A stretch of 64,000 nt of DNA from an uncultured Candidatus Berkelbacteria bacterium (GCA_963698075.1 OY969116.1:189492-253491); one strand, 5' to 3'. Positions 3,481-51,028 are shown, counted from the stretch's first letter. Program-made: numbers and translations. Notes: generated by a model not told the origin, from the letters alone.

Positions 3481-4080
3481 ATGACTCTTACTATTTGTAT
3501 TATTGCTAAAGATGGTTTAGTGCTTGCTTCCGATAGCCGTGCAAGCTCTTTTCTGACGAGTAATGACACAGTTAAAAAAATTTTTAAATTAGATGACCAT
3601 AACGCTGTTGGAATTGCTGGAGATGGGCCTTTAGCGATGCACTTTTTCGACCTAATCTCCAAGGAATTAAATTTTAAAAATGGTATTTCATCATTAGCTG
3701 AGCAATTGAGGACCTTCGGCAAATCCAAATTTGATGAATTTTTTTCTCACCAAAGTCCTAAAGATCGCCCATTATTAAGCATTATTCTCGCTGGATATAG
3801 TCTTAGTGACAAGCCTGATATATATGTACTTAACAGCAACGATAATTTTGTTCCAAGAAAAAATCCAACTGGTTTCGAATGCGTGGGTATTCCGATTATT
3901 GCTAACTATTTACTTAACCGACTCTATGAGTCAGATATTACAACTGATCATGCTGCAGAACTTGCGACATTTTGTATAAGAGAAACGAGTTCTCAAGATA
4001 ATCGTGTTGGTGGTCCAACACAGATTGCGACTTTTTTCCAATACAAAAGAATATGCGGAATTATCAGTAGAAGATATTAG
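3481..4080 (+). CDS. HslV/proteasome beta-subunit-like Ntn-hydrolase peptidase (no HslU partner nearby)
   Basis: MTLTICIIAKDGLVLASDSRASS has Thr directly after Met1 and the D-S-R-A-S motif. GIAGDG is the GxGxG-like strand. The C-terminal half is collinear with proteasome beta/HslV. Confidence 0.6.
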   Translation: MTLTICIIAKDGLVLASDSRASSFLTSNDTVKKIFKLDDHNAVGIAGDGPLAMHFFDLISKELNFKNGISSLAEQLRTFGKSKFDEFFSHQSPKDRPLLSIILAGYSLSDKPDIYVLNSNDNFVPRKNPTGFECVGIPIIANYLLNRLYESDITTDHAAELATFCIRETSSQDNRVGGPTQIATFFQYKRICGIISRRY

Positions 4081-10551: not shown

Positions 10552-11978
10552 TTTTTCTTGTCAATCTTAAGATGAAGCTCTTTTAATTGTTTTTGGTCAT
10601 CAACTTCGGCCGGAGCTTTCATCATTAAATCGCGGCCATCGCCGGTTTTCGGAAAGGCAATTGTCTCACGAATTGAATCCTCGCCGGCCAAAATCATTAC
10701 CAAACGATCCAGGCCCCAGGCAATCCCGCCATGAGGCGGCACACCATATTCAAAAGCTTTGAGTAAGTGGCCAAAACGTTCCTGAATTTCTTTTTTGTTG
10801 TAGCCTAAAACTTCAAAGACCTTTTCTAATATCTTGGGGGCGTGACTGCGAATACTGCCACCACCGAGTTCTTGGCCATTTAAAATCAAGTCGTATTGGG
10901 TAGTCCGGATGGACTCAATCTCGCCTTTGAGAAACTTTTTTTTATCTTTCTTAACCGGATCAGAAAACGGATTATGAGTGAAGGTCCAATTAGCTTCGTT
11001 ATTTTTCTCAAAAAACGGAAAATCAATCACCCAGCAGAAAGCCAATTCGTCGGCATCCTTTTTATTGCGGCGTAAATCTGGTCGATCGGTATGATATTTT
11101 TTTTGAACTTCATCGAAACTGAGTACCGGAAATAGTTCTTCGGTAAGTTTTTTGTTGGGCGTAATTTTTTTAACAATCGCCTTGCCAAGTTTTTCATTAA
11201 TTTCCATGACGTCTTTTTGTTCGGCAAAACTCATCTCCAAATCAAGTTGGGTATGCTCGGGTTGGCGATCACCGCGCGGATCTTCATCGCGAAAACAACG
11301 GGCAATCTGAAAATATTTTTCCACTCCGGCAATCATGAGGAGTTGCTTAAATTGTTGTGGCGACTGCGGCAGAGCATAAAACTTTCCCGGCTGCTGACGC
11401 GAGGGCACTAAATAATCGCGGGCGCCTTCAGGAGTCGATTTAGTCAAATTAGGGGTCTCAATTTCCCAAAAACCTTCTCTATCGAGCCAGTCGCGAATAA
11501 ATTTGATCGTTTTGTACCTGAGTTCAAGGATCTTTTGCATCCGTTCGGTTCTAAGATCCAAATAGCGGTATTCCATCCGTAAATCTTCGGCAATTTTTTT
11601 GGTATCGGTCGTCAAATCAAAAGGTGGCGTGTTGGCTTCGGCTAAGATCTCGAGATTTTCTGCCTCAACCTCAACTTTTCCGGTGGCAATTTTTGAGTTG
11701 TCCATGCCCTCCGGCCGCTTTTTAACTGTACCAGATATCGCCACGACATATTCAGGCCGTAATTTATCGGCTTTCTCATGCAATTCTCCCGAAAGAACCA
11801 CTTGGACTAAACCAGAACGATCTCTTAAATCAATAAAAATCAGTTTGCCGTGATCACGGCGGGCATGAACCCAGCCGGCCAAATTGACCTTCTCGCCGAC
11901 CATTTCAGCTGTTTGAATATTTGCTACTTTCATAAATCCCTTCTTCTTTAAGATAACATAACTTTCCACAGTTGACAA
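10548..11978 (-). CDS. aspS: aspartyl-tRNA synthetase (short form lacking the GAD insertion)
   Basis: Class II aaRS motifs FRDEDPRGDRQPE, QLDLEMSF and GGGSIR...GLDRLVM. N-terminal OB fold. Probable true start at internal MKVAN (about 11933). Confidence 0.85.
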   Translation of the reverse strand: MSTVESYVILKKKGFMKVANIQTAEMVGEKVNLAGWVHARRDHGKLIFIDLRDRSGLVQVVLSGELHEKADKLRPEYVVAISGTVKKRPEGMDNSKIATGKVEVEAENLEILAEANTPPFDLTTDTKKIAEDLRMEYRYLDLRTERMQKILELRYKTIKFIRDWLDREGFWEIETPNLTKSTPEGARDYLVPSRQQPGKFYALPQSPQQFKQLLMIAGVEKYFQIARCFRDEDPRGDRQPEHTQLDLEMSFAEQKDVMEINEKLGKAIVKKITPNKKLTEELFPVLSFDEVQKKYHTDRPDLRRNKKDADELAFCWVIDFPFFEKNNEANWTFTHNPFSDPVKKDKKKFLKGEIESIRTTQYDLILNGQELGGGSIRSHAPKILEKVFEVLGYNKKEIQERFGHLLKAFEYGVPPHGGIAWGLDRLVMILAGEDSIRETIAFPKTGDGRDLMMKAPAEVDDQKQLKELHLKIDKKK

Positions 11979-21511: not shown

Positions 21512-21733
21512 CTAAAGTCTCCTAGTTATTCTTCCCTTGGATAAGTCGTACGGCGAAAGCTCAACTGAGACTTTGTCCCCGGGCAAAATCTTAATGTAAT
21601 TCATCCTAATTTTCCCAGAAACGTGGGCCAAAATTTCCTGCCCATTTTCCAGCCTCACACGAAAAGTAGCGTTCGGTAGAGCTTCCGTGACTTCCCCTTG
21701 TAAAACTATTTTTTCTTTATCCATACCTTGCAC
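21512..21733 (-). CDS. infA: translation initiation factor IF-1
   Basis: [49 protein letters not shown]. Confidence 0.9.
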
Positions 21734-21800
21734 AACTCACTTGTTACTACCATTGTTTAGTAGTGAAACTATTATTATCTTAACACAACTGAGAATTTTC

Positions 21801-21842
21801 GTCAACCCCAACACCTAAAATTAGGTGGTGGGGGTCAACCCC
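21801..21842 (+). promoter_or_regulatory. operator-like site: 16-bp palindrome flanked by GTCAACCCC direct repeats
   Basis: GTCAACCCC-AA-CACCTAAAATTAGGTG-GTGGG-GGTCAACCCC, immediately upstream of the promoter at 21867. Confidence 0.35.
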
Positions 21843-21866
21843 TTTACAAAGATTTCTGATGAGACA

Positions 21867-21894
21867 TTGCACGATCTTAATTTATCGCTATAAT
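21867..21894 (+). promoter_or_regulatory. sigma70-like promoter (TTGCAC-16-TATAAT)
   Basis: Hexamers upstream of an RBS GGGAGAGATG-like sequence. Confidence 0.4.
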
Positions 21895-21932
21895 CTATTT
21901 GTTGGACTGAAGAAGAACGGGAGAGATGACCG

Positions 21933-22373
21933 ATGGACGAGATTCACCAGTTTTACGCCGTCACCATCAGCGGCTCTCTTTATCTGGTAAGCGATAGACC
22001 TGACACCGAATCTCACGTTCCGATCGTCGAGAAAATCGTCATGATTGGCAGCAGTCGGCTTCCGGCCGGGACCAGACTAACCGGCGGCTCATTGGTTGGG
22101 ATTACCCCCGAGGGAATCCAGATGTTCAATCCGGATAAGCACAACCGCACCGCCTATACTGTTTCTACCAACTATTGGGGAGGCGGCTCTTCCCCAATCG
22201 TCGCCCTGTTCCGAGATGAGAGTGAAGCGAGGGAGTGCCTGGGCTCGTCCGACCTGAAGGCTTGGGACCCGAGGTGGCAAATGGCAACCAACCTTGTCCT
22301 CCAACTGATTGGTAGCGAGCATCCCATTTTCCGTCCTGAGCCACAACTCCTCGAGTCCACTCAATCAAGATAG
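21933..22373 (+). CDS. GC-rich hypothetical protein (146 aa)
   Basis: ORF after the promoter and RBS. GC-rich and foreign-looking relative to flanking infA and map. Confidence 0.5.
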   Translation: MDEIHQFYAVTISGSLYLVSDRPDTESHVPIVEKIVMIGSSRLPAGTRLTGGSLVGITPEGIQMFNPDKHNRTAYTVSTNYWGGGSSPIVALFRDESEARECLGSSDLKAWDPRWQMATNLVLQLIGSEHPIFRPEPQLLESTQSR

Positions 22374-22494
22374 ACTACATTCCATTCGTTGAGGGTAAGG
22401 CCTGTGCTTACCCTCTTTTCATTAATACCCCTTTGACAGAAAAATAATATTCAGATATGTTTAAAGCGATCTTGCCTAAGGAGGTGAGCGTACC

Positions 22495-24480
22495 TTGTCT
22501 AAACAAAATCGCCAAGTAACCCCAAGTGAATTCGAGGCTAAATGTACTAATCCTGGAGGAGAAGTCAGCCCAGAGGATCTGGCGAGACTTCTTCGAGAGC
22601 ATTTCCAGCTTGAGGGTGAAATTCAACATTTCTATCAGACTGATGTTTACTACGACACGACTTCATCACCAGATCTGCCGAGATTCCACCTAGGGGGGTC
22701 TGGTTTGAGTCTCCGTGTCCGCAGTTTCAGGGGTGGTGATTCGTATGAACTGACAGCTAAAAGGAATATCTCCGAGATCGGCGGCGTTTTCGTCAGAGAA
22801 GAAGTCCCGGCGATTATTCCGCTTTCTACGGATATCTCTTACCCGATTAACGACCAGAGGCCGAAGCTTCCACCACTCCTTATGATAAGAAAGTACATCA
22901 GCGGCAAGCTTTCACCTGTGGTTATGGTCGAGAATCATCGCATGGTCATCCGTGTTGAGATCGAGGGTCTCAAGATGAAGATCTGTCATGATACGGTTAC
23001 ATATCAAGATTTCCTGACGAACTTACAAGTACCAGATCACGAAATCGAGATTGAATTGCGGGGCCTAAATGCTCAACTGATGGAAGATGTTGTCAGACTT
23101 GTCAGGGAGAAATTCCCTAAACTGGTGGCTCAGCGCGAAGATAAGTATCGGCGCGCACTCGAGCTACTTTTCGGAGAACCGAAACATCGTTCACTTTCTT
23201 ACGTGCCACCGAGCTTTGAGATCGTCAGTCACGACGATATCGAAAGATGTCTTACCCAGGCACCTGAACCATATCGCCCACTGCTGGAGAAGCTCGTTCA
23301 AGATACCACAAGACGTTTAAGCTACAAGTCCCAACTCTCGGTCCTACCAATGCCAACTGATGTCAGACTGGCCCTTTGGCAGGAACGAACAATCGCCAAC
23401 CTGATTGAAGCCAACCCTTTCCTCTATTCTAGCGATCCAGTTCTGGCCGACAGCTGCTTTATCGCCGTTGATCTGCCAGAATCGCCTTTGAGATTCTTTG
23501 AGCATACTCGGGCTCAACATTCAATTGATGTTGCGACCTGGGCGATGACTTTGGCTCGCAAGTGCGGATTCGGAACAGATTCGATCGTTTATGTCGGTTG
23601 TGCTGGCTTAAGACATGACCTTGGACATCCCGCCCTTTGTCACAGTGGCGAAATCGTCGCTAAAGATGTGTGTGGGCTCGATCACGAAGAGAGAACCTTA
23701 CAACTAGTGGATGCAGATGCACCGATCCTATCTCGATACGACTTGGACATCGAGAAACTCAAAGCTATTCTCCGCGAAGAAGACATCGGTCAGATCCTGG
23801 CTTTGGCTGATACTCTTGCATATCTTATTCGAGATGGACAAGCCTGCGAGCGACCGCTTGATCCATCTGTTCCGCGAACAATTGCCGAACATTTTGATTA
23901 TGATTCATCTTCCAACGAGATTATCTTCGACGATGAGCTCATCAGTGCCCTTCAGACAATGCTTGATTTCCGCTTTGAGATGTTTCGGACTGTCTATTAC
24001 CATCCCTATTCCCGAATCGAAGAAGAAATGCAACAGAAAGCCATCAGATGGGCTCTCAGCCAAGGGGTGATAATCATCAGCGACCTTCTCGAGGGAGATG
24101 ATCCGACCCTTCTTAAGAAAATGGCTGAAATGGCAGCCAATGATCCGAAGCTCAAGCAACTGGTCGCCGGCTTTTTCCCGGATTACTGCGCTGTCTATCA
24201 CTACCGACCCCACATCACCTACAAAGGTGCCATTGACGCCGCCAGCATGGATAAAGCCTTAGTTGATGCCGGCTTTGACCCACTTGACTATATCATTAGT
24301 CTTCCAGACACGCGGGCTCATCGAAAAACCATCCGCGGGCGTCGCCTAAATGGCGAATCGGTTGAGCTAAGTGCCCGGAACGTCCGCAATTTCCATCAGT
24401 ATGACTCACAAACAATCATTGCTTTTGCTCCAACGCTTAAGCAACAAGATATCCTTCGAACTTTTCTTCACCCCCGCTAG
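22495..24480 (+). CDS. CYTH-like (triphosphate tunnel) N-terminal domain fused to a dGTPase/SAMHD1-type HD phosphohydrolase domain
   Basis: N-terminal SEFEAK (ExExK), LSLRVRS, ELTAKR and HEIEIEL (acidic C-terminal strand) follow the CYTH pattern. C-terminal RAQHSIDVA...LRHDLGHPALCH...DHEE matches the dNTP-triphosphohydrolase HD motifs. RBS GGAGG. Confidence 0.55.
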   Translation: MSKQNRQVTPSEFEAKCTNPGGEVSPEDLARLLREHFQLEGEIQHFYQTDVYYDTTSSPDLPRFHLGGSGLSLRVRSFRGGDSYELTAKRNISEIGGVFVREEVPAIIPLSTDISYPINDQRPKLPPLLMIRKYISGKLSPVVMVENHRMVIRVEIEGLKMKICHDTVTYQDFLTNLQVPDHEIEIELRGLNAQLMEDVVRLVREKFPKLVAQREDKYRRALELLFGEPKHRSLSYVPPSFEIVSHDDIERCLTQAPEPYRPLLEKLVQDTTRRLSYKSQLSVLPMPTDVRLALWQERTIANLIEANPFLYSSDPVLADSCFIAVDLPESPLRFFEHTRAQHSIDVATWAMTLARKCGFGTDSIVYVGCAGLRHDLGHPALCHSGEIVAKDVCGLDHEERTLQLVDADAPILSRYDLDIEKLKAILREEDIGQILALADTLAYLIRDGQACERPLDPSVPRTIAEHFDYDSSSNEIIFDDELISALQTMLDFRFEMFRTVYYHPYSRIEEEMQQKAIRWALSQGVIIISDLLEGDDPTLLKKMAEMAANDPKLKQLVAGFFPDYCAVYHYRPHITYKGAIDAASMDKALVDAGFDPLDYIISLPDTRAHRKTIRGRRLNGESVELSARNVRNFHQYDSQTIIAFAPTLKQQDILRTFLHPR

Positions 24481-24497
24481 CCGGGGGTTTCGTGTAT

Positions 24498-25247
24498 TTA
24501 TGAGATCTTAGTTAATATCTCAAAACCGTCGCTGGTTACAGCTACCGTATGCTCGAAATGCGCCGCCAGCGAACCATCTAAAGTCGCCACGGTCCAGCCG
24601 TCATTTAAAATTTTAACATGCCAATCGCCGGCGGCAACCATTGGTTCAAACGCTAAAACCATGCCAACTTTCAGAACCGGGCCAGCGCCCTCTCTGCCAA
24701 AATTGGGAATCGAGGGGTTTTCTTGAAGCTCTTGGCCGATGCCATGACCTGCCAGATCGCGAATGGCGCTATAACCGGCGCCTTCAATAATTTTTTGAAT
24801 CCGATGACAAACATCACCTAAATGGATTCCCGGTTTGATAATATCTAATCCTTCATCTAATGATTTCTTGGTAATTCTCAAAAGTTCTTTCTTTGGATAA
24901 TCGATCCGGCCCACCGGAACGGTTAAAGCAGTGTCGGTATGAAAACCCTTATATAAAATTCCCATGTCGATTCCCACCAAATCATTCTCGCGCAAAATTC
25001 GACCCGACGGGATACCGTGAACGACTTCAGAATTGACTGAGGTACAAATCGAAGCTGGGAATCCTTCATGACCCAAAAATGAGGCCTGAGCGCCACTATT
25101 TTTGATTTCTTTCGCCGCCAGAATATCCAATTCTTTGGTCGTCATTCCTGCCTTAACATTTTGAGCCACTAGATTTAAAATTCGGGCGGCAATTCGGCCT
25201 CCCTCCCGCATAATTTCGATTTCTTTTCCGGTTTTAATCGTAATCAT
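24498..25247 (-). CDS. map: methionine aminopeptidase type I
   Basis: Pita-bread fold metal-ligand pattern (D...D...H...E...E), e.g. FHTDTALTV and HGIGQELQE. Confidence 0.9.
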   Translation of the reverse strand: MITIKTGKEIEIMREGGRIAARILNLVAQNVKAGMTTKELDILAAKEIKNSGAQASFLGHEGFPASICTSVNSEVVHGIPSGRILRENDLVGIDMGILYKGFHTDTALTVPVGRIDYPKKELLRITKKSLDEGLDIIKPGIHLGDVCHRIQKIIEGAGYSAIRDLAGHGIGQELQENPSIPNFGREGAGPVLKVGMVLAFEPMVAAGDWHVKILNDGWTVATLDGSLAAHFEHTVAVTSDGFEILTKIS

Positions 25248-25291: not shown

Positions 25292-27076
25292 ATGATAACG
25301 AAACAAGAAGAAAAATTCAATCACGTTACTGCTTCAGAAATATTTAATTTGCTGAATGGCATTCGCTGTGACAAAAAAACATTTCTGCCATTAGCTCTTT
25401 CTAATATTGAAGAGTTAAAGGATTTCTTTAAAGACGATAAAGATAAAAGTACTAACAATTATTTACTTGCTAATTATTCTCCAGGTGAAAAAATAGTAGA
25501 GTCAGGCAAGATAGAGGATAATTATTTAAAATCTCATAAAAACTTTTCTTATGCCGAGGTCCCACTTGGTTTTATAGTTAAGGGCGATGTAATAGTAAGT
25601 AAAGGTGGCAAGGCAACAAAAAGGTTATCACAGGGTGATTTTATCGGCTTGTTTGAAACGAGCGACTGGATTTTAACAGGCAAAAAGCGTGAAATTGGCG
25701 AATGGAGTTTAACTAATGATTCTCCGACTAAATTGATTTATTTTGGAGCTACAAGTTTGCAAGGTGATGATACTAATCACAGAAAACTCAAAAATTATTT
25801 GGTTGATATTGCGAAGAAAGATTATGTGCCTCAACCAATAACAACCCTCCCTCTTTTAGATTGGGTTGCTAACCATACAACTAAATCACGCTTAAACGAT
25901 TATGCAATAATTGCTCATACCCATCTATTACCAAACAATTTCCCTTTCTTTCGACAATTATCTTACCTCGTGAGCTTTAATAGAATGTTTGTTTTAGAAA
26001 AGCCATATTCAACAGTCAAAAGAACTTTCAACGATCTTGTGCAATCAGGCTGCGAAGTTATCCCAGTCAATATGGAACCAGGTTTTCCTTATGAATATTC
26101 AATTAAAAAGAGCTTGGATATACTCTGGGCAAAGGTTGTCGAAGAACAAAAGAAAACTGGTTTTAAGAAACTTCTAATTATTGATGACGGCGGTGATTTA
26201 TGGCTTTCTATTCCTTGGAATGATTTGGAAGGAGTTTCAATTGCTGGAGCTGAACAAACTCAACGCGGTATAACTCGTATAAAGAATAGCAATCATCATC
26301 TCCCTCCTATTATTAGTGTTGCGTCGAGCGGTGTTAAAAAGATTGTAGAGTCCATTTTCATCGGCAGATCAGTAGTTAACAAACTTAAGGAATTAAGGAT
26401 CCTTAACCAGTCGAGAAGAATTGGAATTATGGGTATGGGAAGTATTGGTCAAGCTGCGACTCAAAGACTAAATGAATTAGGCTATAAGCCATTATTTTAT
26501 GATTATGATTACAAGAAAGACAGTGAAATGTCCAACTATCGTTCATCGATCGATGTGTTACTTAATCAGTCGGATATAATTATTGGCACTACAGGTAACG
26601 ATTCGCTAAAAGGTATCCCATTCGAAAGAGTTCGCGGCCGAAAAATATTAACAAGTGCTTCATCTGCAGATGTAGAGTTCGCCTGCTTGTTGAAAATTGC
26701 CGAATCTACAGCTTCTCCGTTTGGAACACGCTATGTAAAGATAAACGATAACTTAAGTTTTGATATCTTAAATGGTGGTTATCCTATTAACTTTGACCGC
26801 CAAGGGAATGCTACACCAAGCGAAGACATCGTCTTAACTAGATGTCTGATGTATACTGGTGCAATGCAATCATCTAAGTTAATAGAAAGTGGCGTTCAAG
26901 AAGGAGCAATCTACAACCTTGATATTATTACTCAACAAAAACTTTTAGAAAAATGGATTGAAGACAAAAATAAGACGGGTCATAGTCCCGATATCAAAGA
27001 GGATGAAATAGATAACATCATCAAGCACTCAAACATTGAAGAATTTAAGAATATGGAAAGCGTCTGGGAAGACTAA
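25292..27076 (+). CDS. cyclic-nucleotide-binding-like domain fused to an S-adenosylhomocysteine hydrolase (AdoHcyase)-like domain
   Basis: Residues about 70-160, GEKIVESGKIED...GDVIVSKGG...GDFIGLFE, are a cNMP-binding beta-barrel pattern. The middle and C-terminus, LLIIDDGGDLW, IGIMGMGSIGQAA, IIIGTTGNDS and ILTSASSADVE, are collinear with the AdoHcyase DDGGD, GxGxxG, TTG and GHFD segments. The GHFD His is replaced. Confidence 0.5.
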   Translation: MITKQEEKFNHVTASEIFNLLNGIRCDKKTFLPLALSNIEELKDFFKDDKDKSTNNYLLANYSPGEKIVESGKIEDNYLKSHKNFSYAEVPLGFIVKGDVIVSKGGKATKRLSQGDFIGLFETSDWILTGKKREIGEWSLTNDSPTKLIYFGATSLQGDDTNHRKLKNYLVDIAKKDYVPQPITTLPLLDWVANHTTKSRLNDYAIIAHTHLLPNNFPFFRQLSYLVSFNRMFVLEKPYSTVKRTFNDLVQSGCEVIPVNMEPGFPYEYSIKKSLDILWAKVVEEQKKTGFKKLLIIDDGGDLWLSIPWNDLEGVSIAGAEQTQRGITRIKNSNHHLPPIISVASSGVKKIVESIFIGRSVVNKLKELRILNQSRRIGIMGMGSIGQAATQRLNELGYKPLFYDYDYKKDSEMSNYRSSIDVLLNQSDIIIGTTGNDSLKGIPFERVRGRKILTSASSADVEFACLLKIAESTASPFGTRYVKINDNLSFDILNGGYPINFDRQGNATPSEDIVLTRCLMYTGAMQSSKLIESGVQEGAIYNLDIITQQKLLEKWIEDKNKTGHSPDIKEDEIDNIIKHSNIEEFKNMESVWED

Positions 27077-49509: not shown

Positions 49510-49574
49510 CCTGAAGGGAAAATTGGTGGCGCGATATGACCGCCAGCAGTTTCTCCTTCGGGAGCTTACCAGGC
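49510..49574 (+). ncRNA. conserved structured leader element E1 (candidate cis-regulatory RNA)
   Basis: CCUGAAGGGAAAAUUGGUGG-[hairpin UGGCG..CGCCA]-CAGUUUCUCCUUCGGGAG, shared with E2. The outer helix CUGAAGG/CCUUCGG competes with a local CUCC-UUCG-GGAG tetraloop hairpin. Confidence 0.45.
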
Positions 49575-49630
49575 AGGCTTTACCTAGTAAGGCACGCTTG
49601 GAAGAGAAGCACAAGAGGAGGCAGGCTTCC

Positions 49631-50170
49631 ATGTCGGAGGCAAGCTTCGGTGAGCAGTCAAGTTGGGAAGATGTCGGTCGTCTTCTGACACAACTGGGGG
49701 CGTTCTTCAGGAAGGCCGCGCGTAGACTCGATTCAGAGTTCCTCCAAGCCTTCACTGACTTCACTCCCTTTAGGGAGGCAGTCGCTGCGACCTATCGGAA
49801 ATGGGCACTACGACTGGTGCAGGAAGCCTTCGGTGTCTGGGTCCTGGAGAGCAGGTGGGCCCAACTCAGGGTATACGACCAACGCAAAACCCCCACTCAT
49901 GTCATGGAGGCCATGAGGGCGCTCGAGAGGATGGTCAAAGACGGCCGCGAGGGGCCCAAGCTTCACGTCCAAGATCATCATTTCACAACTCGAAGCTGCA
50001 GCACCAACATCGTCCAGGTGCTCTTCGCGAATAATCGCGTGCTCTATGTCAGATTCGGAGAGCGTGGAGACGTCTACTGGGATATCTACGGCGCAGCCGT
50101 CTGCCCCATCACCGGTGATGGACCATGTGAGCTCGAAGACATGGTCGCGGCCGTCAAACGCCTCTTCTGA
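49631..50170 (+). CDS. GC-rich hypothetical protein (179 aa)
   Basis: ATG after RBS AAGAGGAGG; no recognisable motif. Confidence 0.5.
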   Translation: MSEASFGEQSSWEDVGRLLTQLGAFFRKAARRLDSEFLQAFTDFTPFREAVAATYRKWALRLVQEAFGVWVLESRWAQLRVYDQRKTPTHVMEAMRALERMVKDGREGPKLHVQDHHFTTRSCSTNIVQVLFANNRVLYVRFGERGDVYWDIYGAAVCPITGDGPCELEDMVAAVKRLF

Positions 50171-50391: not shown

Positions 50392-50437
50392 ACGGGTGTA
50401 TCCCGGAAACAACACCGCTTAACAATTGAGGGATAAC

Positions 50438-51028
50438 ATGCGAGCCTTCGTACGGGGCACACTCTGGACATTGCTGGTGTTGGGCGCCATCGTGGCGGCC
50501 TTCTACGCCAGCATCAAGTACCTAGATGGCGCCTGCTGTCTGGGACTGGAACTCCTGATGGTATTGATCGCTTCTCTGGTCCTCGGCATCGTCCCGGCGG
50601 CGGTCATCGATCTGTTCTTCGCGAAGATCGTCAGGCGCCCCAGGTGGGGAGCAATCGGATTCTACACCGTACTCGGTGCCGTTTTCATCTTCATCCTGGT
50701 ACCGCAGCTCGGTATGACCCACAAGTTGGTACCCTTGGCGCGCAACTTCCACCAAGCGTGCCAGGCCGATCACCGGGAATACCAGTCGGATGACCCCGAG
50801 GTAGTCGTGGCTGATTTCGGCGGCTCGCTGGACAACATCACGTTCGAACGTGACGACGTCCTGCGGGCCGACCAGTATCTCGGCCTCGGCGGGTGGCACT
50901 ACAAGAATAGTAGCGCTACAGTCGGGATGCTGTACCTCTACACCTACCTCCCCAAGACGACTTTCGATCGGTGGTTCCCCGACCCTTACCGGCCGGCGGA
51001 ATCCCAAGAAGCAAAGGGGCGTGGCTGA
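50438..51028 (+). CDS. GC-rich membrane protein (2-3 TM plus soluble C-terminal domain)
   Basis: MRAFVRGTLWTLLVLGAIVAAFY...; RBS GAGGGA. Confidence 0.5.
   Translation: MRAFVRGTLWTLLVLGAIVAAFYASIKYLDGACCLGLELLMVLIASLVLGIVPAAVIDLFFAKIVRRPRWGAIGFYTVLGAVFIFILVPQLGMTHKLVPLARNFHQACQADHREYQSDDPEVVVADFGGSLDNITFERDDVLRADQYLGLGGWHYKNSSATVGMLYLYTYLPKTTFDRWFPDPYRPAESQEAKGRG

What the first reader, a model, noticed from the sequence alone, without database searches (positions are those of the whole stretch)
21740..24497. Foreign GC-rich cassette inside the ribosomal-protein operon (between infA and map): operator-like palindrome, promoter, 146-aa unknown protein, and a CYTH-HD fusion enzyme
The infA-map junction is normally tight, but here it holds 2.7 kb of GC-rich DNA on the opposite strand. 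It begins with GTCAACCCC direct repeats flanking the palindrome CACCTAAAATTAGGTG, a likely repressor site, followed by TTGCAC-16-TATAAT. Gene 1 (146 aa) is unknown. Gene 2 (661 aa) joins an N-terminal CYTH triphosphate-tunnel-like domain (EFEAK, LRVRS, ELTAKR, HEIEIEL) to a C-terminal HD domain of the dGTPase/SAMHD1 type (RAQHSIDVA, LRHDLGHPALCH, DHEE). Both domains act on nucleoside triphosphate groups. dNTP-depleting HD enzymes are known anti-phage effectors, and CYTH domains make or hydrolyse triphosphate-containing signals. I am not aware of a described CYTH-HD fusion. The regulated, horizontally acquired two-gene arrangement looks like a self-contained system.
Basis: partly seen in the sequence, partly recalled or inferred. 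Interest (0 to 1): 0.75.

Follow-up and report, generated by a model that had tools for sequence, protein, structure and literature searches.

The report
Rare fused dNTP-destroying enzyme, inserted gene
A candidate-phyla-radiation bacterium carries, wedged into its ribosomal-protein operon, a very rare dispensable gene that fuses a SAMHD1-like nucleotide-cleaving domain to a triphosphate-cleaving domain; this probably degrades DNA building blocks completely, and the small gene next to it is an unrelated later insertion.

Summary
The sequence features are real. The 661-aa protein is a CYTH/triphosphate-tunnel domain fused to a SAMHD1/EF1143-type HD domain, and both catalytic residue sets are intact. 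The DNA is an insertion. A closer relative (Map 81% identical) has the same gene order, only 67 bp between map and infA, and none of these genes.

The "regulated two-gene system" reading fails. The 146-aa gene has its own promoter-like site and terminator. It is missing from all five other CYTH-HD loci, and one homologue lies elsewhere. It is a separate ~0.62-kb insertion between the back-to-back infA and CYTH-HD promoters.

The fusion is extremely rare: four 50%-identity clusters among 1.84 billion representatives. Five of the six loci with usable flanks sit at the infA|map junction. In two of them GC3 is far above the flanks, and divergence does not track host relatedness. It behaves as accessory hotspot cargo.

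Best mechanism (inferred): HD cleaves (d)NTP to nucleoside plus PPPi, and CYTH cleaves PPPi. The biological role, phage defence or pool control, is open. This is a new variant of known kinds, of moderate interest.

The parts
21512..21724 (-). infA (IF-1), flanking core gene. An ATG at 21724 gives the 70-aa form seen in relatives; the GTG at 21733 gives 73 aa.
   Evidence: Pfam eIF-1a E 6e-26. 87-94% identical to infA of L001-L003 and 90% to L086.
21744..21766 (-). Conserved hairpin in the infA 5' leader (TTACTAC ... GTAGTAA).
   Evidence: Same arms in the window, L001, L002, L003 and the empty-site locus L086. L080 has a different hairpin at the same place. No covariation was seen.
21777..21805 (-). 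infA promoter-like site: -35 TTGACG (21805-21800), 17-nt spacer, -10 TAAGAT with upstream TG. Bases 21794-21805 (AATTTTCGTCAA, reverse complement TTGACGAAAATT) are a relic of the last codons of map (LTKI).
   Evidence: Called by the scan. Conserved in L001-L003 and L086. In empty-site L086 the same 12 nt (12/12 identical) are the codons TTG ACG AAA ATT before the map stop.
21801..21842 (.). Two GTCAACCCC copies (21801-21809, 21834-21842) around an inverted repeat with 13-nt arms (21806-21818 / 21821-21833). Function unknown. The first copy overlaps the infA -35 box.
   Evidence: Not present in L001-L003 or L080.
21867..21894 (+). TTGCAC-16-TATAAT, a possible promoter for the 146-aa gene. The -10 is perfect and the -35 is weak.
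   Evidence: Read from the sequence. Not called by the consensus scan.
21933..22373 (+). 146-aa protein of unknown function. It is part of a separate ~0.62-kb insertion (about 21806-22428) between the infA and CYTH-HD -35 boxes. The insertion is flanked by imperfect direct repeats CCCCTTT(G)ACA(G)AA at 21839-21852 and 22423-22437.
22391..22420 (+). Intrinsic-terminator-like hairpin GAGGGTAAG-7-CTTACCCTC followed by TTTTC, ending the 146-aa transcription unit.
22433..22461 (+). The CYTH-HD gene's own promoter-like site, TTGACA-17-TATGTT (10 of 12), followed by AGGAGGTGA and the TTG start.
   Evidence: Nearly identical in L003 (TTTGACAGAAAAATAATATTCGGATATGTT). TTGACA is also found upstream in L002, L080 and L081.
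22495..24480 (+). 661-aa CYTH-HD fusion protein. The CYTH/triphosphate-tunnel domain covers residues ~12-230 (nt 22528-23184). A helical and disordered linker covers ~231-331. The SAMHD1/EF1143-type HD domain with HD_assoc_2 covers ~332-657 (nt 23488-24465).
24471..24487 (.). Hairpin CCCCCGCTAGCCGGGGG spanning the CYTH-HD stop codon. Likely a bidirectional terminator between the convergent CYTH-HD and map genes.
   Evidence: A hairpin of different sequence sits at the same position in L001, L003 and L080.
24498..25247 (-). map (methionine aminopeptidase), flanking core gene. Its last codons TTA ACT AAG ATC (24504-24515 on the + strand) are the second copy of the segment kept at 21794-21805.
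   Evidence: Pfam Peptidase_M24 E 4e-47. 8 of 12 nt identical to the infA-side copy, and all four differences are synonymous.

Best explanation
The 2.7-kb block is two independent accessory insertions at a permissive spot, namely the last codons of map just upstream of infA.

(1) The older, larger unit is a single-gene transcription unit with its own sigma-70-like promoter and a terminator shared with map. It encodes a bifunctional nucleotide-destroying enzyme. The C-terminal SAMHD1/EF1143-type HD domain would cleave (d)NTPs into nucleoside plus inorganic triphosphate (PPPi). The N-terminal YgiF-like CYTH tunnel domain would then cleave the released PPPi into PPi and Pi. That removes a strongly metal-chelating product and makes nucleotide breakdown irreversible.

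(2) The 146-aa gene, with its palindrome, promoter-like site and terminator, is a later and unrelated insertion between the divergent infA and CYTH-HD promoters.

The CYTH-HD gene is dispensable and patchily distributed in a lineage of Patescibacteria (CPR) whose nearest named relatives are Berkelbacteria-like. It was probably spread or replaced horizontally at this same site. Its cellular role is most likely to lower the dNTP pool, either for phage restriction or for pool control and nucleoside recycling.

Shown here: the anatomy, the domain identities, the residue conservation, the empty site and the rarity. Inferred: both catalytic activities, their coupling, and the biological role.
For: Anatomy:
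- A terminator-like hairpin and a separate conserved promoter lie between the two genes.
- The 146-aa gene is missing in L001, L002, L003, L080 and L081.
- In L002 and L003 the infA and CYTH-HD -35 boxes are back-to-back.

Insertion and accessory status:
- L086/L087 (Map 81%, S13 89%, S4 88% identical) has the same synteny, a 67-bp map-infA gap, and no trace of the genes.
- The duplicated map 3' segment is 12/12 identical to the L086 map end on the infA side. In L080 a 9/9 direct repeat flanks the insert.
- The CYTH-HD gene has GC3 of 64% against about 44% in its flanks in L001, and 56% against about 32% in L080.
- CYTH-HD identity is about 41% to both L001 and L080, although those hosts differ greatly in relatedness (Map 68% against 55%; infA 87% against 68.5%).

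HD half:
- The profile matches 2hek, 2q14, the proven dNTPase EF1143 (2o6i) and dGTPases.
- The H...HD...D ligands and the VYYHPYSR motif are invariant.

CYTH half:
- The best sequence-profile match is also YgiF (E 5.6e-11, full-length). Class IV cyclases score E 0.24-0.58.
- The ExExK motif and all acidic and basic tunnel residues are invariant across 11 subfamily members.

Coupling:
- An unrelated ~1,470-1,570-aa family (7 clusters) carries two SAMHD1-like HD modules followed by a C-terminal CYTH of the same subfamily. The two domain types have therefore been joined at least twice, in opposite orders.
- SAMHD1-type enzymes release PPPi (PMC5207538 abstract).
- PPPi is a strong chelator. Specific TTM triphosphatases have been proposed as 'metabolite proofreading' enzymes, and the in-vivo source of their substrate is unclear (PMC3440374).
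Against: - No biochemistry exists for any member of this family.
- The nearest solved HD structures (2hek, 2q14) are uncharacterised structural-genomics proteins, so substrate specificity (dNTP, NTP or something else) is inferred.
- A CYTH domain with intact catalytic residues could act on another triphosphate. It could also serve as an allosteric or sensor module.
- The alignment behind the structure model has only six sequences, and the relative placement of the two domains was not examined.
- Horizontal spread rests on composition and on pairwise identities from six sequences, not on a reconciled phylogeny. Ancestral presence followed by loss in L086 is not excluded.
- No integrase or other mobility gene lies nearby.
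- No known defence gene is adjacent, and defence profiles match only the generic HD motif.
Confidence: 0.5

Rival explanations
1. Single-protein anti-phage effector. The HD domain depletes dNTPs on infection, as bacterial dGTPase and dCTP-deaminase defences and SAMHD1 do. The CYTH domain either removes PPPi or senses an infection-derived triphosphate signal. This is a biological-role reading that is compatible with the best explanation's chemistry.
For: - dNTP depletion by HD dNTPases is an established defence strategy (10.1101/2021.04.26.441389; PMC13519002).
- The gene is dispensable, patchy, compositionally foreign in two loci, and sits in a hotspot with other variable genes: the 146-aa gene, a 111-aa ORF in L001, and the 594-aa gene.
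- In Peregrinibacteria the same map|infA junction carries an opposite-strand patatin-like phospholipase gene.
- One member of the 2xHD+CYTH family lies beside HTH_38 and MT-A70 genes.
Against: - PADLOC and NCBIfam anti-phage dGTPase models match only about 70 residues around the HD motif, far below their cut-offs.
- No fusion homologue exists in 50,697 phage or 72,556 plasmid records, and there is no PHROG hit.
- No neighbouring known defence genes.
- No sensor or regulator is evident.
- CPR phage biology is essentially untested.
Confidence: 0.3
2. Housekeeping dNTP-pool control or nucleoside-salvage enzyme of a reduced-genome CPR lineage. It would be vertically inherited at this position and occasionally lost.
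For: - The position is conserved in five of six loci, across hosts whose Map proteins are only 55-75% identical.
- Within the window/L002/L003 clade, identity ranks follow the flanking genes.
- In the window itself the gene's GC is unremarkable (z 0.94).
- EF1143-type dNTPases are housekeeping enzymes in other bacteria (established knowledge).
Against: - A closer relative (L086/L087) lacks the gene entirely and has a clean 67-bp junction.
- Maps 80-84% identical to the window's are known, but no CYTH-HD above 67% identity exists among 5.8 billion clustered proteins.
- Only four 50%-identity clusters exist among 1.84 billion representatives.
- GC3 is anomalous in L001 and L080, and divergence is incongruent with host relatedness.
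Confidence: 0.25
3. Signalling module. The CYTH domain acts as a class IV (CyaB-like) nucleotide cyclase, and the HD domain degrades or responds to the cyclic product. Alternatively, the CYTH domain is a non-catalytic nucleotide or polyphosphate sensor that gates the HD domain.
For: - Some CYTH proteins are adenylyl cyclases (PMC8233210).
- A plant TTM3-like protein described as an adenylyl cyclase (8h92) and a 'putative adenylate cyclase' (2gfg) appear among the structural neighbours.
- SAMHD1-type enzymes are allosterically regulated by nucleotides (PMC9257424).
Against: - Profile matches to true class IV cyclases (2fjt, 3n0y) are not significant (E 0.24-0.58), whereas YgiF scores 5.6e-11.
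- CyaB-type cyclases form a small separate cluster, and members of the cluster that contains 2gfg (BH2851) are reported as not forming cAMP (PMC8233210).
- The HD half is of the triphosphohydrolase type with HD_assoc_2, not HD-GYP or PDE.
- Full conservation of the catalytic acidic and basic tunnel residues argues for catalysis rather than mere binding.
Confidence: 0.1
4. One reading: a horizontally acquired, repressor-controlled two-gene system in which the 146-aa protein partners with the CYTH-HD enzyme (for example as regulator, antitoxin or sensor).
For: - The genes are adjacent and on the same strand in this genome.
- A palindrome lies upstream.
- Both genes are richer in GC than their flanks.
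Against: - The partner gene is absent from all five other loci.
- Its homologue P0007 lies in an unrelated context.
- A terminator-like hairpin and an independent conserved promoter separate the two genes.
- The palindrome is not conserved elsewhere.
- The two genes differ in composition (GC3 64% against 48%).
Confidence: 0.04

Closest known systems
SAMHD1 / Enterococcus faecalis EF1143 / Aquifex aq_1910 (2hek) clade of HD-domain dNTP triphosphohydrolases (Pfam HD + HD_assoc_2)
   Same: - Same H...HD...D metal ligands.
- Same DxxxY..RD and VY.HP.SR motifs.
   Different: - Carries an N-terminal CYTH domain and a ~50-residue low-confidence insertion before the HTR..HS motif.
- No SAM domain.
- Only 16-21% identity to solved members.
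- Substrate and allosteric control untested.
E. coli YgiF and other triphosphate-tunnel-metalloenzyme inorganic triphosphatases (NeuTTM, CthTTM, AtTTM3)
   Same: - ExExK motif and the full set of tunnel arginines, lysines and glutamates are present.
   Different: - YgiF carries a C-terminal CHAD domain; here the partner is a dNTPase-type HD domain.
- Only 20% identity.
- Activity on PPPi is inferred, not shown.
CYTH-'HD hydrolase' fusions noted by Iyer & Aravind 2002 (as cited in PMC8233210)
   Same: A CYTH domain joined to an HD-superfamily phosphohydrolase. The authors place such proteins at the interface of nucleotide and phosphate metabolism.
   Different: The original paper could not be read here, so it is unknown whether those fusions involve the SAMHD1-type HD domain or this domain order. 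The family found here comprises four 50%-identity clusters and has no name in any source.
Bacterial anti-phage dGTPase / dNTPase effectors (Dgt-type; Clover CloA)
   Different: - Profile membership fails (13.6 bits against a 400-bit cut-off).
- Different HD subclade.
- The published survey of dGTPase fusions lists SAM, NLR, TIR, CARD, death and SIR2 domains but not CYTH.
- No defence phenotype is known.
~1,500-aa proteins with two SAMHD1-like HD modules and a C-terminal CYTH (P0025, P0039, P0136 and others)
   Same: Same two domain types and the same CYTH subfamily. These are among the best CYTH matches in 1.84 billion proteins.
   Different: Reverse domain order, two HD modules, more than twice the length, different organisms and contexts. 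Also uncharacterised.

Membership tests
CYTH / triphosphate tunnel metalloenzyme superfamily (PF01928) | Profile match above the curated threshold | tested here: met
   35.3 bits against a 23.2 cut-off, residues 42-221. 50-53 bits in P0008 and P0009.
CYTH / triphosphate tunnel metalloenzyme superfamily (PF01928) | N-terminal ExExK motif plus conserved basic (R, K) and acidic (E, D) tunnel residues | tested here: met
   E12, E14, K16, R74, R76, K89, R101, R149, D166, E185 and E187 are invariant in 11 subfamily sequences. They align to the YgiF motifs.
CYTH / triphosphate tunnel metalloenzyme superfamily (PF01928) | Closed beta-barrel tunnel fold | tested here: met
   [not shown]
Inorganic triphosphatase (YgiF/NeuTTM-like activity) | Specific hydrolysis of PPPi to PPi + Pi | not testable with these tools
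   Supported only by nearest-neighbour similarity. Requires an enzyme assay.
Class IV (CyaB-like) adenylyl cyclase | Significant similarity to the CyaB / YpAC-IV cluster | tested here: not met
   2fjt E 0.58 and 3n0y E 0.24, against YgiF 5.6e-11. CyaB enzymes form a separate small cluster (PMC8233210).
SAMHD1/EF1143-type dNTP triphosphohydrolase (HD + HD_assoc_2) | HD and HD_assoc_2 profile matches above threshold | tested here: met
   HD 22.7 bits against 22 (marginal). HD_assoc_2 35.8 bits against 23.1. The PDB profile search returns 2hek at 1e-14, 2q14 at 6e-9 and EF1143 at 8e-7.
SAMHD1/EF1143-type dNTP triphosphohydrolase (HD + HD_assoc_2) | H...HD...D metal-binding residues and accompanying catalytic His, Arg and Tyr residues | tested here: met
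   R339, H342, H374, D375, H378, H383, H397, D439, Y443, D447 and H503 are invariant in six homologues at about 40% identity. They align with the 2hek, 2q14 and EF1143 motifs.
SAMHD1/EF1143-type dNTP triphosphohydrolase (HD + HD_assoc_2) | Release of nucleoside + PPPi from dNTPs; nucleotide-dependent oligomerisation and allostery | not testable with these tools
   Needs biochemistry. No oligomer prediction was run.
Known anti-phage dGTPase (PADLOC dGTPase; NCBIfam NF041026 / NF003701) | Full-length profile match at the family cut-off | tested here: not met
   PADLOC gives 31.4 bits over residues 335-406 only. NF041026 gives 13.6 bits against 400, and NF003701 gives 11.1 against 383.
Known anti-phage dGTPase (PADLOC dGTPase; NCBIfam NF041026 / NF003701) | Location among other defence genes or on mobile elements | tested here: inconclusive
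   Variable hotspot with an empty site in a relative and foreign composition in L001 and L080. However, there are no recognised defence or mobility genes nearby and no phage or plasmid copies.
Two-gene operon / system (146-aa + CYTH-HD) | Conserved co-occurrence and co-transcription of the two genes | tested here: not met
   The partner is absent in 5 of 5 other loci. Its homologue lies elsewhere. A terminator-like hairpin and a separate promoter lie between the genes.
Genomic-island / hotspot cargo | Empty site in a close relative with otherwise identical synteny | tested here: met
   L086/L087: map-infA gap of 67 bp, flanking proteins 72-90% identical, no tblastn trace of the genes.
Genomic-island / hotspot cargo | Boundary repeats or target duplication; integrase or transposase | tested here: inconclusive
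   A short duplicated map 3' segment flanks the insert (8/12 in the window, 9/9 in L080). No recombinase gene is present in any locus.

The most novel reading that the evidence does not exclude
The fusion is a self-sufficient 'nucleotide incinerator'. A SAMHD1-like domain strips the triphosphate from dNTPs and hands PPPi directly to a fused triphosphate-tunnel triphosphatase.

If true, this would be the first evidence that dNTP triphosphohydrolases are a physiological source of PPPi for TTM/CYTH triphosphatases, whose substrate origin in cells has been unclear. The enzyme would act as a mobile immune effector that candidate-phyla-radiation bacteria exchange at a fixed hotspot inside the ribosomal-protein operon.
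Probability: 0.25. Interest if true: 0.7.

Novelty: new variant of a known kind. Interest (0 to 1): 0.5.

Why it matters
Both domains belong to well-known superfamilies, but their pairing suggests a concrete and cheaply testable link. SAMHD1-type enzymes are among the few reactions that release free inorganic triphosphate. Dedicated PPPi hydrolases of the CYTH family exist without a clear cellular source for their substrate (PMC3440374). Two independent fusions of these domain types argue that the activities belong together.

If that holds, it would assign a metabolic rationale to a branch of the CYTH family. It would also add a new architecture to the dNTP-depleting enzymes that matter in antiviral immunity from bacteria to humans.

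The locus further documents that the map|infA junction of the ribosomal-protein cluster is a recurrent insertion site for accessory genes in CPR bacteria. Accessory and defence gene content in these organisms is poorly charted.

Tried and rejected
- GTDB species-representative genomes scanned with the CYTH-HD profile: nothing found, not even the source genome.
- The same collection scanned with Map gave only relatives at or below 53% identity, so it placed the lineage in Patescibacteria but supplied no close genome.
- JGI metagenome scan: one partial relative (L005, near-identical to L003 in its flanks and intergenic DNA) and one HD-only protein.
- Phage and plasmid collections: only HD-only matches at 24-32% identity. 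PHROGs: none.
- Rfam and tRNA scans of the region: no significant feature, so no tRNA-type integration target.
- Contexts of the nearest HD-only homologue (P0011) and a stand-alone CYTH (P0142) were checked for an adjacent partner domain. The contigs were too short or showed none.
- Cluster look-ups gave no names or accessions.
- Iyer & Aravind 2002 is not held, so it could be cited only through PMC8233210.
- The idea that the GC excess marks the whole block as recently foreign was rejected for the CYTH-HD gene in this window (z 0.94). It was kept for the 146-aa gene.
- The idea of strictly vertical inheritance, suggested, was rejected after the empty site and the GC3 and identity incongruence.
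- The number of independent insertion events could not be resolved from the short boundary repeats.

Full report
**1. What is at the coordinates**

infA (21512-21724/21733, minus strand) and map (24498-25247, minus strand) are separated by 2.76 kb. That DNA carries two plus-strand ORFs, 21933-22373 (146 aa) and 22495-24480 (661 aa).

Pfam places three domains on the 661-aa protein, each above its curated cut-off: CYTH (residues 42-221), HD (339-405) and HD_assoc_2 (473-546). The 146-aa protein matches nothing in Pfam, PADLOC, NCBIfam or PHROGs.

The GTCAACCCC pair (21801-21809, 21834-21842) and the inverted repeat are real. The repeat count is only marginally above chance: 2 copies against 0.42 expected, with 5 of 100 shuffles reaching 2. 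The 16-mer is not a perfect palindrome, because its reverse complement differs at 2 positions. It does extend to 13-nt arms at 92% complementarity. TTGCAC-16-TATAAT lies at 21867-21894, with a weak -35 that the consensus scan did not call.

Across 78 window ORFs the mean GC is 43.2% (sd 5.7). The 146-aa gene is an outlier (55.1%; GC3 63.9%). The CYTH-HD gene is not (48.6%, z 0.94).

**2. The two genes are separate units**

A terminator-like hairpin (22391-22415, followed by TTTTC) follows the 146-aa gene. After it come a TTGACA-17-TATGTT promoter-like site (22433-22461), an AGGAGGTGA Shine-Dalgarno sequence and the TTG start of the CYTH-HD gene. That promoter is almost base-for-base conserved upstream of the CYTH-HD gene in L003. 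TTGACA boxes also occur upstream in L002, L080 and L081.

On the other side, a minus-strand TTGACG-17-TAAGAT site (21805-21777) and a leader hairpin (21744-21766) precede infA. Both are conserved in the relatives.

In L002 and L003 the infA and CYTH-HD -35 boxes lie back-to-back, 5-10 bp apart. In the window about 620 bp is inserted between them (roughly 21806-22428). This insert holds the palindrome, the second GTCAACCCC copy, the weak promoter, the 146-aa gene and its terminator. It is bounded by imperfect repeats CCCCTTT(G)ACA(G)AA.

**3. The CYTH-HD gene is a rare, dispensable insertion at a fixed spot**

A word-indexed search of 5.8 billion clusters found four proteins: the window's own, and others at 67%, 61% and 41% identity. 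An exhaustive HMMER search of 1.84 billion 50%-identity representatives found only four full-length clusters.

Five of the six loci with usable flanks (window, L001, L002, L003, L080) place the gene on the opposite strand immediately upstream of infA; map lies on its far side in the four whose contig extends that far. L081 has it elsewhere. A seventh, partial locus (L005, near-identical to L003 in its flanks and intergenic DNA) also has it next to infA.

This first looked like vertical inheritance, because identity ranks follow the flanking genes within the closest clade. Three later results argue against a strictly vertical history:

- **Empty site.** Map homologues 80-84% identical to the window's exist. 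One of them, on L086/L087, has the same synteny from SecY through RbfA, with flanking proteins 72-90% identical. Its map-infA gap is only 67 bp, its adk-map gap is 93 bp, and tblastn finds no trace of the 146-aa, 661-aa or 594-aa genes.
- **Composition.** The gene has GC3 of 64% against about 44% in its flanks in L001, and 56% against about 32% in L080.
- **Incongruent divergence.** CYTH-HD identity to the window is about 41% for both L001 and L080, although those hosts differ greatly in relatedness (Map 68% against 55%; infA 87% against 68.5%).

The insertion point is precise. In the empty site, the infA -35 box TTGACG is formed by map's own last codons (ATC TTG ACG AAA ATT TAA). In the window the infA side keeps TTGACGAAAATT, 12/12 identical to L086. 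Map itself ends with a second copy, TTA ACT AAG ATC, that differs only at four synonymous positions. L080 shows a 9/9 direct repeat (TATTGACAC) on both sides of its insert.

No recombinase gene is present in any locus. The number of independent insertions, as opposed to one gain followed by loss, cannot be resolved.

Other genes occupy the same neighbourhood. The AT-rich 594-aa gene sits between map and adk in this genome only. A GC-rich 111-aa ORF lies next to the CYTH-HD gene in L001. In Peregrinibacteria, an opposite-strand patatin-like phospholipase gene sits between map and infA. The junction therefore behaves as an insertion hotspot.

The host is a Patescibacteria (CPR) bacterium. The nearest named Map proteins are from Candidatus Berkelbacteria at 56-60% identity.

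**4. What the protein is**

The AF2 model was built from six sequences (pLDDT 81.9, pTM 0.81). It shows a beta-barrel domain (residues 12-230), a helical and disordered linker, and a helical HD domain (332-657).

Sequence profiles agree. The HD half matches 2hek (1e-14), 2q14, the biochemically proven dNTPase EF1143, and dGTPases. A profile of 11 members of the CYTH subfamily matches YgiF best (5.6e-11, full length), whereas true class IV cyclases score E 0.24-0.58.

Residue conservation supports catalysis in both halves. The ExExK motif and the acidic and basic tunnel residues are invariant across the subfamily. The H...HD...D ligands and accompanying residues are invariant across six homologues at about 40% identity. 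A published similarity network places YgiF among triphosphatases and the CyaB cyclases in a small separate cluster (PMC8233210).

**5. Mechanism**

SAMHD1-type enzymes cleave dNTPs into deoxynucleoside and inorganic triphosphate (PMC5207538 abstract). PPPi is a very strong divalent-cation chelator. Specific CYTH triphosphatases have been viewed as 'metabolite proofreading' enzymes, and the cellular source of their substrate is unclear (PMC3440374).

The fusion of a dNTPase-type HD domain to a YgiF-like CYTH domain suggests a two-step enzyme:
- HD: (d)NTP -> nucleoside + PPPi
- CYTH: PPPi -> PPi + Pi

Independent support comes from a second family of about 1,470-1,570 aa (seven clusters among the top 150 hits). 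It carries two SAMHD1-like HD modules followed by a C-terminal CYTH of the same subfamily, with the same invariant residues. That is the same pairing in the reverse order.

Both activities and their coupling are inferred, and I put the chemistry at roughly 50%. The biological role is less certain:
- Phage restriction by dNTP depletion: about 30%. This fits the accessory hotspot behaviour, but no defence profile, defence neighbour or phage/plasmid copy supports it.
- Housekeeping pool control or nucleoside recycling: about 25%.
- Cyclase or sensor signalling: about 10%.

**6. Comparison with what is known, and novelty**

CYTH fusions to 'HD hydrolase' domains were noted in the founding CYTH paper, as cited by PMC8233210. 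The original could not be read here. A 2026 survey of dGTPase domain fusions lists SAM, NLR, TIR, CARD, death and SIR2 partners but not CYTH.

The protein passes every testable membership criterion for the CYTH/TTM superfamily and for the SAMHD1/EF1143-type HD clade. It fails the profile criteria for the recognised anti-phage dGTPase families and for class IV cyclases.

It is therefore a new, uncharacterised and very rare variant built from known parts, not a categorically new system. Its main value is the testable link between dNTP triphosphohydrolysis and PPPi hydrolysis, together with the documentation of an insertion hotspot inside the CPR ribosomal-protein cluster.

**Verdict.** Interest 0.5.

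Noticed in passing
window 25292-27076 (+): A 594-aa AT-rich gene (35.6% GC) lies on the opposite strand between map and adk. It is absent in L001, L003 and L086, where adk and map are 0-93 bp apart. The only family signal is an NAD-binding Rossmann segment (2-Hacid_dh_C at residues 373-431; adenosylhomocysteinase-like at 291-473, far below cut-off). This looks like a third independent accessory insertion in the same stretch.
   Followed up: partly
L037 1190-2101 (-), also L038: In two Peregrinibacteria genomes the map|infA junction (about 1.19 kb) holds an opposite-strand 303-aa patatin-like phospholipase gene (GGGGARG ... GTSMGS motifs). This suggests that the same junction accepts different accessory genes in another CPR lineage.
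   Followed up: partly
P0025, P0039, P0066, P0074, P0136, P0140, P0144 (loci L083, L085): An unnamed family of ~1,470-1,570-aa proteins carries two SAMHD1-like HD modules and a C-terminal CYTH domain of the same subfamily as the window protein. In L085 the gene is flanked by HTH_38 and MT-A70 genes.
   Followed up: partly
window 21744-21766 (-); L001, L002, L003, L086 equivalents: A conserved hairpin (TTACTAC ... GTAGTAA) lies in the infA 5' leader of five related genomes, including the empty-site one. L080 has a different hairpin at the same position, and L003 carries an extra GC-rich stem in the loop. There is no Rfam match.
   Followed up: partly
window 24471-24487; L001 ~11945-11970; L003 ~3913-3935; L080 ~2511-2535: A hairpin spans the CYTH-HD stop codon in every locus that retains map downstream of it, with a different sequence in each. 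The structure, presumably a bidirectional terminator shared with map, is kept while the sequence changes.
   Followed up: no
L001 9468-9803 (-): A 111-aa Cys-rich ORF with a hydrophobic N-terminus and very high GC3 (72% against about 44% in the flanks) sits between infA and that locus's CYTH-HD gene. It has no Pfam hit and is unrelated to the window's 146-aa protein.
   Followed up: partly
window 49523-50170 (+) and 50426-51028 (+): These two ORFs are the strongest compositional outliers in the window (57-60% GC; GC3 67-77%; z up to 3.8). They may be other foreign genes, or they may be spurious ORFs over a GC-rich feature.
   Followed up: no
L081 5596-7539 (+): The one CYTH-HD homologue (P0009, 41% identical) that is not at the infA|map junction lies downstream of a lytic-transglycosylase (SLT) gene, near the HIT, S21, YqeY, YbeY and FtsA genes of another CPR-like genome.
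   Followed up: no
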